The position numbers were made by a program, and so were the translations under genes. Positions 2,206 through 48,761 of a DNA stretch of 64,000 bases are shown one piece after another; the stretch's first letter is position 1, and each line of letters opens with the position of its first letter. The stretch lies in the sequence record MN709127.1; one strand, written 5' to 3'. The stretch comes from Escherichia phage Ec_Makalu_002. The notes under the pieces are model-generated. The model had not been told where the DNA came from. It did not search any database and saw nothing but the letters and a program-made list of their open reading frames with translations.

Positions 2206-4068
2206 TTACATGTGCTTAACGCGGTTTACCATCTCGGAGTGTTTCCCGTGGTTAAATGGACGCAGATCAACAGATCCAAGATATCCACTAACGCGACGGA
2301 TGACATTCATCTTTTCCAGATTGTCATTGCCGCAATCAGGACAAACAAAACCAGACTCGGTCGCTCTCATTTCCTTAGTAGATCCGCATACATGACATAC
2401 ATCAGAAGGAGTATTAACACCGAAGTAGTGCAATTTATCCATTGCATAGTCTACTACAGTTTCAAGCCCTTTAATGTTGTTTTTCATGTCCGGGAACTCA
2501 ACATAAGAGATCATACCACCAGACGCCAGCCAGTGATAGTCTTTCTCAAAGTCGATTTTCTCAAACGGTGTAACTTTCCGGTCTACGTCAAGGTGGAATG
2601 AGTTGGTGTACCAATCTTTATCGGTAGCACCCTTAACAATACCAAATTGCTCTCGGTCCAGTCGATTAAATCGATAACAAAGGCTCTCGGCTGGCGTGCC
2701 GTAAAGACTAAACCCAAGTCCGGTTTCGTCCTTCCATTTTTCAGTATAATGACGCAGGATTTTAAGAATATGTTTACCGTATCGCTGCGCATCTTCCGAA
2801 TCAAACGGATGAACACCAAACAGGACGCTCAACACTTCATGTAAACCAATATACCCAAGAGAGATACTAGCGCGACCATCTTTCAGCACTTCCAAAATTT
2901 CATCGTTTTGATGAATACGGAAAAATGCACCTTCTGTATACAGCACCGGAGCAACATTGGCTTTAGCCCCTTTTAAAGCGTCTACGCGACTCATGAGCGC
3001 ATCAAAGCAAATAGGCAGACGATTAGCTAGCTCTTGTTCGAATAGCTCAATTCTGCGCATTACAGACGCTTTACCAGCACGACGCGCGGCAATAAGTGCA
3101 ATACGCGGAAGATTCAGAGTCACAACACCTAAGTTATTACGTCCGTCTAATACTTCTTCGCCTTTCTCATTATGCCACACACCCAGGAAGCTACGACAAC
3201 CCATCGGGCTAACCGGAACACTAGATCCAGTGATACTACGGTTATTCTTCGCAGAGATATAATCAGGGTAAAGACGCTTACTAGAACATTCCAATGCAAG
3301 TTGCTTAATATCGTAGTTCGGATCTTCCGGTTTAAGGTTTAATCCTTCTTCTAAGAACATCACCAGCTTAGGAAACACCGGAGTTATACCATCTTTACCT
3401 AAACCTTTAGTTCGAACTTTCAGGATCGCTTTCTGAATCAGTTTTTCTTCCCAGCTAGTACCCATACCAAAGGTTAAAGTCACAAAAGGTGTTTGACCGT
3501 TGGTAGAGAACAAAGTGTTGATCTCATATTCCAACGCCTGATATCCGTCTAGTGTTTCTTTTTCTGTCTTCTCTTGTGCATAGAGAGTATTAGCTTTGAT
3601 TCCGTAGGTTTCGGCATCAGCAAGATGTTTATGATATGTTTTCTTAACATACGGTGCTAACACCTGATCGATGTTTGCTATGGTAGTTCCGCCATATTGA
3701 TGACTTGCCACCTGTGCGATAATTTGAGCTGTTACAGCACATGCAACACCGATCGATTTAGGACTTTCGATTTGTGCGCTACCCAATTTAAAACCATTCT
3801 CTAACATGTCTTTGAGATTAACAAGACAGCAGTTAGTAAACGGCATAGCGGGTGCATAATCCATATCATGATAATGAATATCACCGTCTACATGCGCTTT
3901 ATAGATGTGCTCAGGTAACACGGTTTTAGCAATCTGTTTAGACACAGCACCAGCAATCAGATCTCGACGTGTCGGGAATGTTCGCGCGTCTTTGTTCGCG
4001 TTCTCTTTGCTTACTTCGTTTTCTTTACCCGTTGCGATCTCTGTAATGTCTTTGATTAGTTTTTCCAT
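2206..4068 (-). CDS. nrdD: anaerobic ribonucleoside-triphosphate reductase (glycyl radical enzyme), uninterrupted
   Basis: 620 aa; C-terminal CPDCG zinc motif and RVSGYLG glycyl-radical motif; single ORF, so no intron. Confidence 0.95.
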   Translation of the reverse strand: MEKLIKDITEIATGKENEVSKENANKDARTFPTRRDLIAGAVSKQIAKTVLPEHIYKAHVDGDIHYHDMDYAPAMPFTNCCLVNLKDMLENGFKLGSAQIESPKSIGVACAVTAQIIAQVASHQYGGTTIANIDQVLAPYVKKTYHKHLADAETYGIKANTLYAQEKTEKETLDGYQALEYEINTLFSTNGQTPFVTLTFGMGTSWEEKLIQKAILKVRTKGLGKDGITPVFPKLVMFLEEGLNLKPEDPNYDIKQLALECSSKRLYPDYISAKNNRSITGSSVPVSPMGCRSFLGVWHNEKGEEVLDGRNNLGVVTLNLPRIALIAARRAGKASVMRRIELFEQELANRLPICFDALMSRVDALKGAKANVAPVLYTEGAFFRIHQNDEILEVLKDGRASISLGYIGLHEVLSVLFGVHPFDSEDAQRYGKHILKILRHYTEKWKDETGLGFSLYGTPAESLCYRFNRLDREQFGIVKGATDKDWYTNSFHLDVDRKVTPFEKIDFEKDYHWLASGGMISYVEFPDMKNNIKGLETVVDYAMDKLHYFGVNTPSDVCHVCGSTKEMRATESGFVCPDCGNDNLEKMNVIRRVSGYLGSVDLRPFNHGKHSEMVNRVKHM

Positions 4069-15445: not shown

Positions 15446-15478
15446 TAAAAACGAAAAAGCCACCCTTTCGGATGGCTT
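15446..15478 (-). terminator. rho-independent terminator
   Basis: Hairpin agccatcc-gaaa-gggtggct followed by UUUUUCGUUUUU on the minus-strand transcript. Confidence 0.6.
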
Positions 15479-15711
15479 TTGATTATATTTTATTCACGTC
15501 CATTTGTATAGTAGTGTTTGAATCGACCTTTGCTAAACTAGTTAAACATAGTAACCAATTCACCATCCCTTTCCAATGATAACCCTTCCTCGTCTTAGAC
15601 GGGTCTTCCGATTCGGCAGTAATTGAACACGCGAAAGTATGAGGAAGCCAAATAGTTGTGTTAATGCTAGTATTCTTTTACTTCTGGTATGCATCCACCC
15701 TGTGACTAACA

Positions 15712-16209
15712 TTAAGCTAGTCGAGTGAGTTTATAAATTGTTTTAAAGCATAGAATTTTGATATCGTCTAAAACGCTCTGTAACGAGCTATCAACATCAT
15801 TATAAATCTCACTAGCCATTTGCGTTAACTCTTGCAAATAGGCAATTTCGCTAATCTCCTTGCGGACGACCAACGTTGGCTGATAACGACCAGTGATCCC
15901 AATATTGGTTTCAGTGAAATTATCAACCAATTCTTGCATTTCAAGATAGAACTCTTCTAGAGCCTTATGTTTTGCATAAGATCCAGGACCAGTTACCCCA
16001 AAATGCGCAGAATGCATATAAGTAACACTCATCAGACATTCACCGATAAAGCGGTCAACTTTATTAGCTTTCCCATCTTCGGACGTCTTTCGAAAATCAC
16101 TGAATTTCATGTTCTCGATTCTCCACATTATGCAGCATAACAAATTGGTTTGCGGCATATTCCCCCATAATAAAACACTGCTTAGAATCCATACATTTAC
16201 TACGAGCAT
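15712..16209 (-). CDS. hypothetical protein (probable true start MKFSDF near 16110); position matches T4 rI.-1
   Basis: ORF-track N-terminus overlaps the upstream gene; internal Met preceded by GAGAATCGAGAAC. Confidence 0.45.
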   Translation of the reverse strand: MLVVNVWILSSVLLWGNMPQTNLLCCIMWRIENMKFSDFRKTSEDGKANKVDRFIGECLMSVTYMHSAHFGVTGPGSYAKHKALEEFYLEMQELVDNFTETNIGITGRYQPTLVVRKEISEIAYLQELTQMASEIYNDVDSSLQSVLDDIKILCFKTIYKLTRLA

Positions 16210-16399: not shown

Positions 16400-16467
16400 A
16401 AGTCATTCCCCCAGATTTAAAATATTCAGTTATATTTATAATCTGGGGCTTTATTTATGATTAACTC

Positions 16468-26220: not shown

Positions 26221-26243
26221 ACTTTTTTAAAAAAATTTTAGGC

Positions 26244-26271
26244 AATAAAAAAGCCACTCCGAAGAGTGGCT
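26244..26271 (-). terminator. rho-independent terminator
   Basis: Perfect hairpin agccactc-ttcg-gagtggct followed by UUUUUUAUU on the minus strand. Confidence 0.65.
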
Positions 26272-26419
26272 TATAGGGAAGGTAGCGAATCTTCCTTGTC
26301 TCCAACCTGCTAGCGGCCTAGCAAGTGAATGCTTTAGCGTACCGGATCGCCCATACGCTGCAATAAATGCGGCTAGGTGACGTCCAAATCATTCTAACCG
26401 CGCTGTCTTTAGTTCACTA
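26272..26419 (-). ncRNA. candidate structured small RNA / structured 3' UTR (non-coding, several hairpins, ends at terminator)
   Basis: ~150 nt without ORF; minus-strand hairpins gcgguuag...cuagccgc, agcgua...uacgcu, ugcuag-gccg-cuagca, ggaag...cuucc. Confidence 0.25.
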
Positions 26420-26638
26420 TTATTTATATCGCTTTCTCTCGCGACGTTTTTGATCTTCTTCCTTGATAGAGTTAAATGCATCAAAAAGACACATGACACT
26501 AATAATAAACATAACCGTATTTTCTACGATATCCCACGGCTTCGCATCAGTACAGATCCCCCAAACGGTAAGAAATGCAAATAAGGCAGAAGAGATCACA
26601 AGCATGATACTTGCTAAGACATAAAAGGTCATCTTCAT
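26420..26638 (-). CDS. small membrane protein
   Basis: 72 aa; hydrophobic helices; basic C-terminus RRERKRYK. Confidence 0.4.
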   Translation of the reverse strand: MKMTFYVLASIMLVISSALFAFLTVWGICTDAKPWDIVENTVMFIISVMCLFDAFNSIKEEDQKRRERKRYK

Positions 26639-47360: not shown

Positions 47361-48761
47361 ATGTCAAACAATACTATTAACCATGTAAAAGACGATGCTC
47401 AATACGTCAAGTTTAACCCTGTAAATGATTGGCCTCAAAGCATTACCAACGTACAAGCGGCTTTAGCCGCTATTAATGGCTTTGCCGTAAATGGATTACC
47501 GGACGCTACGGAAGATACAGCCGGGATCGCTGCAATCGCAACTCAGGAAGAAGTAAACGACGGGGTAGTAGACAATAAGATCGTGACTCCAAAAACACTG
47601 GCTGTTAAAATGTCACGTCCAGATGCTACAAAAGAAGTAAAAGGCATTACCCGATTTGCCACAATGGAAGAATCGCTGCAAGAGAGCAACGAGAACATGG
47701 CAATCGGTCCAGACACACTAAACCATTACTTCACCACTAAAAAGGCGTCAGAGAGCGTTCAGGGGACTATTAAGATATGTTCTCTTGAGGCGGCAAAGAT
47801 TGGCAGTGATGACACAATGGCAGTAACACCGAAAAAGATGCACACTGCCATTGCACAGATTGTACCGGGATTAATTCCAGATCAAAACACAGCAACCGAA
47901 AGCGCACAGGGTTTAGTTCAGTTAGCAACCAGTGCGCAGGTTTTACAAGGCCAGATTCGAGAAGGTTTTGCAATTAGTCCTTATGCATTTGCAAATGCTC
48001 GCGCCAATGAGAATCAGGCGGGTACTGTTAAGATCGCCAGTCAGTCACAGATGAATGCTGGTTCAGATGATACTGTAGTTGTTTCTGCTAAGAAGTTTGC
48101 AAGCACTAAGGCAACAACGTCTCAATACGGTATTGTTAAACTACGAGACACCGTAGGAAGTGAGGCTAATGCTGCACTATCAGCAAATGCTAAGGTTCTT
48201 CCTAGCACTGGCGGTACGGTAAGCGGAAACGTCTATAAAGGTTCAAACTCAGACGGCAACCAGTTTGTTACTAAAAATGAATTAGCGAATCACGCAATGC
48301 CAATTGGTGGTATTATCCTTTCTGGATTCAATGCCGACCGAGGTGACTTTCTGATCTGTAATGGTCGTTCACTGAATAAAAATCAATATCCGCAATTATT
48401 TTCTGCGATTGGTTATACCTTTGGTGGTTCAGGTGACAATTTTAACATTCCTGATATGCGCGGTTTAGTTGCTCGTGGTTGCGATCATGGAAGAAACCTT
48501 GATCCAGGTCGTCGATTTGGTTCTTATCAAGAAGACGCAATGCAGAGAATTACTGGTAAATTCCCTGTAGCTGACCGCTGGCGCGGTTGGTATGGTGGCG
48601 CATTTACTGCACAGCGCGGTCAATGGAGCACGAACTATAAAAATGGTGGGGGTGATGATTGGGGTTCTACTGTTAACTTTGACTCAGGAAGATCCGTAAG
48701 AACGGCTAACGAGACTCGCGTCAAGAGTCTGGCATTAAACTATATCATAAGGGTGCGCTAA
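47361..48761 (+). CDS. 12: short tail fiber protein gp12
   Basis: 466 aa; Gly/Thr/Ala-rich repetitive fibre sequence; synteny. Confidence 0.75.
   Translation: MSNNTINHVKDDAQYVKFNPVNDWPQSITNVQAALAAINGFAVNGLPDATEDTAGIAAIATQEEVNDGVVDNKIVTPKTLAVKMSRPDATKEVKGITRFATMEESLQESNENMAIGPDTLNHYFTTKKASESVQGTIKICSLEAAKIGSDDTMAVTPKKMHTAIAQIVPGLIPDQNTATESAQGLVQLATSAQVLQGQIREGFAISPYAFANARANENQAGTVKIASQSQMNAGSDDTVVVSAKKFASTKATTSQYGIVKLRDTVGSEANAALSANAKVLPSTGGTVSGNVYKGSNSDGNQFVTKNELANHAMPIGGIILSGFNADRGDFLICNGRSLNKNQYPQLFSAIGYTFGGSGDNFNIPDMRGLVARGCDHGRNLDPGRRFGSYQEDAMQRITGKFPVADRWRGWYGGAFTAQRGQWSTNYKNGGGDDWGSTVNFDSGRSVRTANETRVKSLALNYIIRVR

What the first reader, a model, noticed from the sequence alone, without database searches (positions are those of the whole stretch)
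26272..26419. ~150 nt ORF-free, highly structured segment ending at a strong terminator: candidate small RNA
Between the stop of the ORF at 26420 and the terminator at about 26244-26271, the minus-strand sequence folds into at least four hairpins (gcgguuag...cuagccgc, agcgua...uacgcu, ugcuag-gccg-cuagca, ggaag...cuucc) and encodes no peptide. T-even phages encode stable small RNAs of unknown function in the corresponding region near the tRNA cluster. I could not fit a cloverleaf, so this is not called as tRNA.
Basis: seen in the sequence. Interest (0 to 1): 0.45.

Follow-up and report, generated by a model that had tools for sequence, protein, structure and literature searches.

The report
Conserved structured small-RNA candidate in RB49-like phages
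A 147-base non-coding stretch at the end of an early operon in RB49-like (Krischvirus) coliphages is under purifying selection and folds into stable hairpins between a late-promoter motif and a terminator, so it is a credible but unproven new phage small RNA.

Summary
It ends at a strong intrinsic terminator (26251-26272).

The window is a Krischvirus (RB49/JSE-like) genome. The element is single-copy in all 58 related phage records at 95.7-100% identity.

- **Selection:** outside one hypervariable hairpin tip, 5/136 sites vary, against 36/197 neighbouring third-codon positions (p=3e-5).
- **Structure:** substitutions in the core stems keep pairing, including one GC>GU>AU series. The covariation is real but thin.
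- **Gap size:** six of nine strong terminators in the window sit 4-11 nt after a stop codon. This one sits 147 nt after.
- **Promoter motif:** an exact TATAAATA overlaps the upstream stop codon. The six other copies in the window each lie 27-33 nt before a gene start. This predicts a primary late RNA of about 170 nt.

It is not a tRNA, matches no Rfam family, and is not homologous to T4 RNAC/RNAD, although it lies in the same 57B-to-lysin interval. No homolog was found outside Krischvirus.

Best reading: a genus-specific small RNA, or a 3'UTR-embedded RNA module. Expression and function are untested.

The parts
26420..26638 (-). Upstream ORF (RB49p118 homolog). It encodes a 72-aa hydrophobic protein and is the last gene of the early dmd operon. 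It ends in three in-frame stops, UAA UAG UGA.
   Evidence: The protein family is found only in Krischvirus.
26421..26428 (-). Exact TATAAATA, the T4-type gp55 late-promoter consensus. It overlaps the last codons and the stop of p118. The predicted +1 is at about 26415.
   Evidence: The 6 other exact copies in the window each lie 27-33 nt upstream of the ATG of an ORF of at least 100 aa, or one running off the window end. The motif is present in 23 of 24 variants. Promoter function is inferred, not shown.
26402..26415 (-). Conserved single-stranded 5' leader GAACUAAAGACAGC. It is invariant except one position (26407: G/A/deleted) and is a possible seed region.
26369..26401 (-). Hairpin H1. It has 8 bp, an AA/C internal loop, 4 bp, and the loop UUGGAC.
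   Evidence: Pairing probability 0.98. One U-A to U.G change (phage Brandy).
26336..26359 (-). Hairpin H2, with a 7-bp stem and a short apical stem. The tip (26343-26353) is hypervariable and carries indels.
   Evidence: One pair runs GC>GU>AU and two other pairs show GC or AU to GU. The tip has 5/11 variable sites.
26301..26329 (-). Hairpin H3. The 8-bp core CUUGCUAG/CUAGCAGG (26306-26325) with loop GCCG is invariant. The lower 4-bp extension is not conserved as a helix.
   Evidence: The extension is broken in kaaroe (C>A) and in MIZ6 (A>C).
26296..26305 (-). Purine-rich linker UUGGAGACAA, followed by the GGAAG of H4. It contains GGAG (26300-26303), the RegB endoribonuclease target motif. Cleavage here is only inferred.
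   Evidence: sequence; regB present in RB49; PMC3014915 for RegB specificity.
26277..26295 (-). Hairpin H4, GGAAG-AUUCGCUAC-CUUCC, an SD-like sequence paired with an anti-SD-like one. Its loop can alternatively pair with the 5' end UAGUGAA.
   Evidence: One A-U to G.U change (L013). Pairing probability is context dependent.
26246..26272 (-). Intrinsic terminator: 9-bp stem, UUCG loop, U6 tract. It is shared by the early operon and the predicted late RNA.
   Evidence: (TransTerm 100 in RB49).
26190..26218 (-). Strong early promoter (TTGACA-17-CATAAT) for the next gene. Together with the terminator it forms a PeSL-type cassette. It is context, not part of the RNA.
   Evidence: PMC2839356.

Best explanation
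This is a genus-specific non-coding RNA module at the 3' end of the early dmd operon of Krischvirus phages (p124, dmd, p122-p118, then the element).

**How the RNA is made (inferred).**
- Early in infection it is made as the 3' UTR of the polycistronic mRNA.
- Late in infection it is made as a primary transcript of about 170 nt. This starts near 26415 from a gp55-type late promoter (TATAAATA, 26421-26428) that overlaps the stop codon of p118. It ends at the shared intrinsic terminator (26246-26272).

**Why it would be stable (inferred).** Three very stable hairpins (H1, H2, H3 core) plus the terminator hairpin should make it long-lived.

**How it would act (inferred).** Its single-stranded stretches are invariant or nearly so: GAACUAAAGACAGC, AUUUAUU, AAAGCAUUCA and the SD-like/anti-SD-like GGAGACAAGGAAG...CCUUCC. 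A U-tailed terminator follows them. The most likely mode of action is therefore in trans, either as a base-pairing small RNA or as a protein-titrating small RNA.

**Shown here:** absence of coding capacity, the structure, genus-wide presence, purifying selection, pair-preserving substitutions, and the promoter and terminator motifs.

**Inferred only:** that the promoter fires, that a discrete stable species accumulates, and what it binds.
For: - **Distribution.** The element is single-copy in all 58 Krischvirus records at 95.7-100% identity, and in metagenomic relatives.
- **Purifying selection.** 5/136 sites are variable outside the H2 tip, against 36/197 third-codon positions in p117-p119 (Fisher p=3e-5). 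Against p117 alone the p-value is 0.025.
- **Allele boundary.** In L013 and L015 the adjacent p118 ORF is only about 82% identical while the element is 94-96% identical.
- **Pairing across variants.** Across 23 distinct variants, 99.4% of stem cells are paired. There is one GC>GU>AU pair. Every other one-sided change in a core stem gives G.U on the minus strand only.
- **Folding.** z=-2.8 for the element and z=-4.4 for the predicted transcript. The opposite strand is weaker, z=-1.9.
- **Gap size.** Six of nine strong terminators in the window lie 4-11 nt after a stop codon. This one lies 147 nt after, the largest gap.
- **Promoter motif.** All six other exact TATAAATA sites sit 27-33 nt upstream of a gene start. 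The motif is kept in 23 of 24 variants.
- **Parallel in T4.** The stable RNAs RNAC and RNAD lie in the same 57B-lysozyme interval and accumulate late (PMC9697503).
Against: - No transcript data exist for any Krischvirus.
- Covariation is weak. There is one two-sided pair, and the pair-count and pair-type shuffle controls are not significant.
- The TATAAATA also encodes Tyr-Lys-stop. Seven copies in the window is what shuffles predict by chance.
- A published late-promoter prediction for RB49 lists none here (PMC1524935).
- One contig (L028) has a 14-nt deletion that removes the motif while keeping the element intact.
- The neighbouring promoter/UTR and p117 are about as conserved overall. Local recombinational homogenisation, as around PeSL cassettes, could therefore contribute to the conservation.
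- No convincing target was found by duplex scans within the 64-kb window.
- No homolog was found outside the genus.
Confidence: 0.45

Rival explanations
1. The element is a purely cis-acting 3' UTR. The hairpins act as a 3' exonuclease barrier or a processing platform that sets the stability of the early dmd-operon mRNA. Possible cleavage sites are the AU-rich linkers (RNase E) and GGAG at 26300-26303 (RegB). No trans-acting RNA is involved.
For: - The element directly follows the last ORF of an early operon and shares its terminator.
- A GGAG lies in a purine-rich linker, and regB is encoded by these phages (PMC3014915).
- The structure is robust in the long-mRNA context.
Against: - Most other strong terminators in the same genome sit 4-11 nt after the stop codon with no such spacer, so a 147-nt module is not generally needed for 3' end protection.
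- The single-stranded linkers are as invariant as the stems, which a simple barrier would not require.
- The late-promoter motif is left unexplained.
Confidence: 0.25
2. The element is a non-functional spacer or a relic, for example a decayed gene or an old terminator. It looks conserved only because all known Krischvirus genomes are recent relatives and this locus is homogenised by recombination.
For: - All relatives are at least 94% identical in the element.
- The flanking PeSL promoter/UTR and p117 are similarly conserved.
- The surrounding region is mosaic: p118 alleles are 82% identical between flanks that are 96-99% identical.
- Covariation statistics are weak.
Against: - The element varies significantly less than third-codon positions of all three neighbouring ORFs, including p117.
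- No substitution breaks a core stem.
- Variation is concentrated in one hairpin tip.
- The element is retained in 58/58 genomes of a hyperplastic region that otherwise shows indels.
Confidence: 0.15
3. The element is a riboswitch-like or attenuator leader. The structured domain would sense a ligand or factor and control read-through of the terminator into p117 and the genes downstream.
For: The architecture is that of a structured domain directly followed by an intrinsic terminator. H4 competes with an alternative pairing between the 5' end and the H4 loop.
Against: - No segment can form a convincing anti-terminator. Terminator pairing probability is 0.94-0.97 in every context tried.
- The downstream gene has its own strong early promoter between the terminator and its start.
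- No Rfam riboswitch scores, even at E<=10.
Confidence: 0.05
4. The signal acts at the DNA level, for example as a protein-binding site, a recombination site or a replication-related site, rather than as an RNA.
For: Sequence invariance covers stems and linkers alike. The + strand also folds moderately well, z=-1.9.
Against: - The one-sided stem changes give G.U on the minus-strand RNA, which would be A.C mismatches on the other strand. Existing G.U pairs have the same polarity.
- The element has no repeats or iterons.
- It lies inside a transcription unit, in the sense orientation.
Confidence: 0.05

Closest known systems
T4 stable RNAs RNAC (species 1, 139 nt) and RNAD (species 2, 119 nt)
   Same: - They are small non-coding RNAs of a T4-type phage with unknown function.
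- They lie in the same syntenic interval between 57B and the lysis enzyme.
- They are similar in size.
- T4 RNAC and RNAD accumulate late (PMC9697503), and a late-promoter motif lies upstream here. T4 also has a TATAAATA inside the ORF upstream of its tRNA cluster.
   Different: - No sequence or structure similarity was found. The covariance model of the element finds nothing in the T4 region. T4 rnaC/rnaD find nothing at the element.
- T4 rnaC/rnaD homologs occur in 801 phage records, whereas the element matches only Krischvirus.
- As T4 is annotated, RNAC and RNAD directly follow tRNA-Arg with no terminator between them, and RNAC has a tRNA-like T arm. That they are cut from a tRNA precursor is background knowledge, not tested here.
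- This element ends at its own intrinsic terminator, and RB49-type phages have no tRNAs (PMC1524935).
Enterobacterial 3'UTR small RNAs with an internal promoter that share the mRNA terminator (MicL/DapZ type; from general knowledge)
   Same: - The promoter motif overlaps the end of the upstream coding sequence.
- The RNA shares the parental mRNA's Rho-independent terminator with a U tract.
- An AU-rich stretch precedes the terminator.
- Single-stranded segments are conserved.
   Different: - The promoter is of phage late type (gp55), not a host sigma-factor type.
- The body is much more structured than typical Hfq small RNAs.
- Hfq or ProQ binding and targets are untested.
- No target was found in the window.
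PeSL cassettes of T4-type phages (terminator stem-loop plus early promoter; PMC2839356, PMC4122927)
   Same: The terminator (26251-26272) and the early promoter (26190-26218) immediately downstream form such a cassette. The promoter part is repeated at 25197-25257.
   Different: The 147-nt element lies upstream of the cassette. It is single-copy per genome, is not part of the repeat, and is not mentioned in the PeSL paper.

Membership tests
tRNA / tmRNA | Cloverleaf with anticodon arm and T loop, detectable by ARAGORN | tested here: not met
   0 genes in the whole window. The H4 loop UUCGCUA lacks the T-loop A58 and the closing G-C pair (sequence).
Any Rfam 15 family | Covariance-model score at or above the family's gathering threshold | tested here: not met
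   No hit at gathering thresholds. The best sub-threshold hits are 23.9 bits against a threshold of 100 and 22.8 bits against 47. Their alignments rest on hairpin 3, hairpin 4 and the terminator hairpin.
T4 RNAC/RNAD stable RNAs | Sequence or structure homology to T4 rnaC or rnaD | tested here: not met
   Model R1 finds nothing in the T4 tRNA/rnaC/rnaD locus. blastn-short and nhmmer of rnaC/rnaD against the window give no hit at the element.
T4 RNAC/RNAD stable RNAs | Location in the 57B-to-lysozyme interval next to the tRNA genes | tested here: inconclusive
   The syntenic interval is the same, but these phages have no tRNA genes (PMC1524935).
T4 RNAC/RNAD stable RNAs | Accumulates as a discrete stable species late in infection | not testable with these tools
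   Only a late-promoter motif and a terminator are seen. No Krischvirus transcriptome was found.
3'UTR-embedded small RNA with its own promoter | Shares the terminator of the upstream mRNA | tested here: met
   No terminator lies between p118 and 26272, and the terminator is strong.
3'UTR-embedded small RNA with its own promoter | Functional promoter inside or at the end of the upstream coding sequence | tested here: inconclusive
   For: an exact TATAAATA is present, and all 6 other copies sit in a promoter position. Against: the count equals chance, the motif was not predicted in PMC1524935, and it is deleted in L028.
3'UTR-embedded small RNA with its own promoter | Chaperone (Hfq/ProQ) binding and base-pairing to targets | not testable with these tools
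   A U6 tail and an AU-rich stretch before the terminator are present. The duplex scan of the window found no outstanding target.
Riboswitch / transcription attenuator | Alternative anti-terminator pairing that competes with the terminator | tested here: not met
   Terminator pairing probability is 0.94-0.97 in all contexts. Only 4-nt complementarities to the terminator arms are visible in the sequence.
PeSL cassette | Repeated stem-loop plus early-promoter module | tested here: not met
   The repeat covers 26169-26229 only. The element itself occurs at one place per genome.

The most novel reading that the evidence does not exclude
The element is a late-expressed stable RNA that fills the role played in T4 by the unexplained RNAC/RNAD species. 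It is non-homologous to them but sits in the same locus, in phages that have lost all tRNAs. It would act as a decoy or sponge for a host factor, for example an RNase, an RNA chaperone or an RNA-targeting defence. That would fit its position at the end of the operon that carries the antitoxin Dmd.
Probability: 0.1. Interest if true: 0.7.

Novelty: new member of a known kind. Interest (0 to 1): 0.4.

Why it matters
A 2010 review notes that no trans-acting regulatory RNA or riboswitch had been functionally characterised in T4-type phages, and that the roles of RNAC and RNAD were unknown (PMC3014915). In 2022 they were still described as RNAs of unknown function (PMC9697503).

This element is a compact, well-delimited candidate: promoter motif, about 170 nt, terminator. 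It is under clear purifying selection and sits in a genetically tractable coliphage group that is used in phage therapy. It could be deleted, probed and pulled down directly.

If it is a real late small RNA, it would be a handle on phage RNA-based control of host or phage gene expression. It would also argue that the 57B-lysin interval is a conserved home for stable RNAs in T4-type phages, even where tRNAs have been lost.

If it is only a 3' UTR stabiliser, it is of local interest.

Tried and rejected
- **tRNA or tmRNA:** rejected, none found.
- **Known RNA family:** none at Rfam gathering thresholds or at E<=10.
- **Homology to T4 RNAC/RNAD:** none.
- **Host origin or mimicry:** no blastn match in 5,426 E. 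coli genomes. A stem-anchored pattern gave no match in 185,579 bacterial and archaeal genomes.
- **Wider distribution:**
  - The covariance model R1 found nothing in the 57B-flanking 10-kb regions of other T4-like contigs.
  - It found nothing in a T1-like phage that carries the p117 homolog.
  - Its two weak hits elsewhere in the window lie at the 3' ends of coding regions, next to other terminator hairpins.
  - Pattern scans of IMG/VR and JGI metagenomes returned only four further contigs carrying near-identical copies.
  - The upstream protein family has only 6 clusters, all at least 82% identical.
- **Hidden peptide:** a 6-codon AUG mini-ORF lies in the H2 tip, but indels there are not multiples of three.
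- **Closing stem making a cloverleaf-like four-way junction:** RNAalifold prefers it. It has about zero probability in the predicted late transcript and in longer mRNA contexts. Its first three pairs are broken in L028, and the first also in L033.
- **Target search:** duplex folding of five conserved segments against both strands of the window gave only self-antisense hits and unremarkable others. A near-copy of the H2 tip at 19905-19917 is on the wrong strand for pairing and is of marginal significance.
- **Literature:** searches found no description of this element.

Full report
**What the window is.** A 2-kb query around the finding matches 58 phage records at 94-97% identity. All are RB49-like T4-type coliphages of the genus Krischvirus: JSE, Phi1, GEC-3S, Makalu and others. 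In RB49 the gene order is 3, 1, 57A, 57B, then a hyperplastic stretch of small ORFs that includes dmd, then the endolysin. The finding lies in that stretch. It sits after the 72-aa hydrophobic ORF 26420-26638 (RB49p118) and before a terminator, a strong early promoter and the 61-aa ORF 25958-26143 (RB49p117). Published predictions for RB49 place an early promoter upstream of p124 and a confidence-100 terminator between ORF118 and ORF117 (PMC1524935). The element is therefore the 3' end of the early p124-dmd-p122...p118 operon.

**Checking the observation.**
- The terminator is a 9-bp stem with a UUCG loop and a U6 tract at 26246-26272.
- No credible ORF exists on either strand.
- The 147-nt element folds at -49.0 kcal/mol (z=-2.8; 2 of 200 shuffles as good).
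- The 170-nt stretch from 26415 to the end of the terminator folds at -62.9 kcal/mol (z=-4.4; 0 of 200).
- The complementary strand is weaker, z=-1.9.
- Only 9 of 3452 tiles of 148 nt across the window fold at least as stably by raw energy. The element is in the 97th percentile for G+C (0.49 against 0.405). After adjusting for G+C it is only about 2 sd from the mean, so it is clearly structured but not unique.
- H1, H2, the 8-bp core of H3 and the terminator have pairing probabilities of at least 0.94 in every transcript context tried. H4 ranges from 0.07 to 0.85.
- In a simple scan for strong terminators, six of nine lie 4-11 nt after the upstream stop codon. The others lie 34 and 79 nt after, and this one 147 nt after, the largest gap. 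The spacer is thus exceptional for this genome.

**Known families.**
- ARAGORN finds no tRNA or tmRNA in 64 kb, in line with the published statement that RB49 has none (PMC1524935).
- Rfam gives nothing at gathering thresholds. It gives only far sub-threshold matches at E<=10, whose alignments rest on hairpin 3, hairpin 4 and the terminator hairpin.
- There is no match in complete E. coli genomes, and none to a stem-anchored pattern in 185,579 prokaryotic genomes.

**Relatives and selection.** The 186-nt query is single-copy in 58 records at 95.7-100% identity. Outside Krischvirus only the terminator hairpin matches. The upstream protein family is confined to the same phages. I collected 24 copies (23 distinct) from GenBank phages, IMG/VR, ENA, Logan and JGI contigs and aligned them to a covariance model.
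- Variation is concentrated in the tip of H2, which also has indels. The rest is almost invariant, linkers included.
- Among eight complete genomes, 5 of 136 element positions outside the H2 tip are variable, against 36 of 197 third-codon positions in the three flanking ORFs (Fisher p=3e-5). Against p117 alone the p-value is 0.025. That rate is comparable to second-codon positions.
- In two divergent metagenomic genomes the adjacent p118 ORF is about 82% identical while the element is 94-96% identical.
- A caution applies: the promoter/UTR and p117 downstream are about as conserved overall, and the locus is mosaic. Part of the conservation could therefore reflect recombination history.

**Structure in the alignment.** Of 1098 stem cells, 99.4% form standard pairs.
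- One H2 pair runs GC (20 sequences), GU (1), AU (2).
- Other one-sided changes are U-A to U.G in H1, A-U to G.U and G-C to G.U in H2, and A-U to G.U in H4. The apical H2 pair is G.U, A-U or G-C. All of these preserve pairing on the minus-strand RNA and would be A.C mismatches on the other strand.
- The only substitutions that break a pair are two transversions in the lower 4-bp extension of H3, which is therefore probably not a real helix. A few non-pairs in the apical H2 stem reflect alignment register around the indels there.
- The shuffle controls are significant for percent paired and covariation score (0 of 500) but not for pair or type counts. The tool warns that related sequences inflate the first two measures.
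- The evidence for RNA-level constraint is therefore consistent but thin. H1, the H3 core and the terminator never or hardly ever vary, and so say nothing either way.
- RNAalifold prefers to pair the extreme 5' end (UAGUGAACU) with the H4 loop, which gives a four-way junction. That stem has essentially no probability in the predicted late transcript or in long mRNA contexts. Its first positions are not conserved in L028 and L033. I treat it as an unproven alternative to H4.

**A transcription unit of its own?** An exact TATAAATA, the T4-type late promoter, lies at 26421-26428 and overlaps Tyr-Lys-stop of p118.
- Seven copies in the window equals the chance expectation.
- However, all six others sit 27-33 nt upstream of an SD plus ATG. 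Five of those ORFs are at least 100 aa and the sixth runs off the window end. Exact copies in this genome therefore seem to occur essentially only where they function.
- The seventh copy has no ORF behind it. It is followed by the structured element and the terminator, which predicts a primary late RNA of about 170 nt starting near 26415.
- The motif is present in 23 of 24 variants.
- Against: the published RB49 late-promoter list has no entry here. One WGS contig (L028) carries a 14-nt deletion that removes the motif, plus a frameshift in p118, with the element otherwise intact.

**Comparison with T4.**
- T4 has its eight tRNAs, rnaD and rnaC between 57B/ipI and the e region.
- T4 RNAC and RNAD are late RNAs of unknown function (PMC9697503; PMC3014915). 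T4 also has a TATAAATA inside the ORF just upstream of the tRNA cluster.
- There is no homology. Model R1 finds nothing in the T4 locus. T4 rnaC/rnaD find nothing at the element. They have 801 matching records of their own.
- RNAC has a tRNA-like T arm, and the annotated RNAs follow tRNA-Arg directly with no terminator of their own. This element has neither feature and ends at its own terminator.
- R1 also finds nothing in the 57B-flanking regions of seven contigs from more distant T4-like phages (57B only 28-52% identical), nor in a T1-like phage that carries a p117 homolog.

**Mechanism.** The best-supported reading is a genus-specific non-coding RNA module that is made as a 3' UTR early and, by inference, as a primary small RNA late. 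Its hairpins and terminator would stabilise it, and its invariant single-stranded segments would let it act in trans. I could not identify a target, so the trans-acting step is inference.

The rivals are:
- a purely cis-acting 3' UTR stabiliser or processing platform, which would include a possible RegB site at GGAG (26300-26303);
- a neutral relic kept by recent ancestry;
- an attenuator, for which no anti-terminator was found;
- a DNA-level signal, which is disfavoured by the G.U polarity of the stem changes.

**Verdict.** The small-RNA interpretation is strengthened but not proven. The element matches no described family in the libraries searched, and I found no paper that mentions it. It is a new candidate member of a known kind (phage small RNAs) and of moderate interest.

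Noticed in passing
window 25958-26143 (-): The 61-aa protein downstream of the element (RB49p117, Pfam DUF7421) has homologs at about 72-80% amino-acid identity in many T1-like siphoviruses of about 50 kb (Drexlerviridae: tonn, tunus, pSf-1, SH6 and others). This points to exchange between unrelated phage families. The T1-like locus lacks the RNA element.
   Followed up: partly
window 26169-26229 and 25197-25257: A 61-nt direct repeat (89% identical) covers the early promoter and the start of the 5' UTR of two neighbouring genes. This is the PeSL-type promoter cassette described for RB49/Phi1. Two Logan contigs break exactly in this repeat.
   Followed up: partly
L005 (phage FL15), terminator loop corresponding to window 26260-26263: The terminator tetraloop UUCG is replaced by its reverse complement CGAA while the stem is unchanged. 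This is a loop inversion.
   Followed up: no
L028 (MAVA01000028.1) 3330-3350, corresponding to window 26417-26430: A 14-nt deletion (GATATAAATAATAG) removes the TATAAATA motif and the stop codons of p118. Two extra bases in the A run upstream shift the p118 frame. The RNA element downstream is 100% identical to the window. This could be a real variant or an assembly error.
   Followed up: partly
window 26420-26638 versus L013 and L015: p118 exists as divergent alleles (about 82% nucleotide identity) between flanks that are 94-99% identical. This indicates either a mosaic replacement or fast evolution of this small membrane protein.
   Followed up: partly
window 15790-16030 (-): A 241-nt segment inside the 165-aa ORF 15712-16209 folds unusually well (-78.4 kcal/mol, z=-5.4, 0/200 shuffles). 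This is stronger than the finding itself after G+C adjustment.
   Followed up: partly
window 15455-15480 (-): A second strong terminator has an unusually long gap (79 nt) after a 50-aa ORF. It may correspond to the 329-nt unannotated gap in RB49 between RB49p084 and rI.-1 (RB49 47,675-48,002), but this correspondence was not checked.
   Followed up: no
window 26411-26422 (-): p118 ends in three consecutive in-frame stop codons of all three kinds (UAA UAG UGA).
   Followed up: no
T4 rnaC/rnaD homologs in the phage collection: T4 rnaC/rnaD homologs occur in 801 phage records. In most of the 30 rows listed they are unannotated or covered by a 'hypothetical protein' CDS. Some Enterobacter phages match only the rnaC half.
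   Followed up: no
window 16433-16440 (-), 33206, 44015, 57335, 62925, 63778 (+): Every other exact TATAAATA in the window lies 27-33 nt upstream of the ATG of an ORF of at least 100 aa (the last one runs off the window end). The spacing is very regular and is useful for annotating late genes in these phages.
   Followed up: yes
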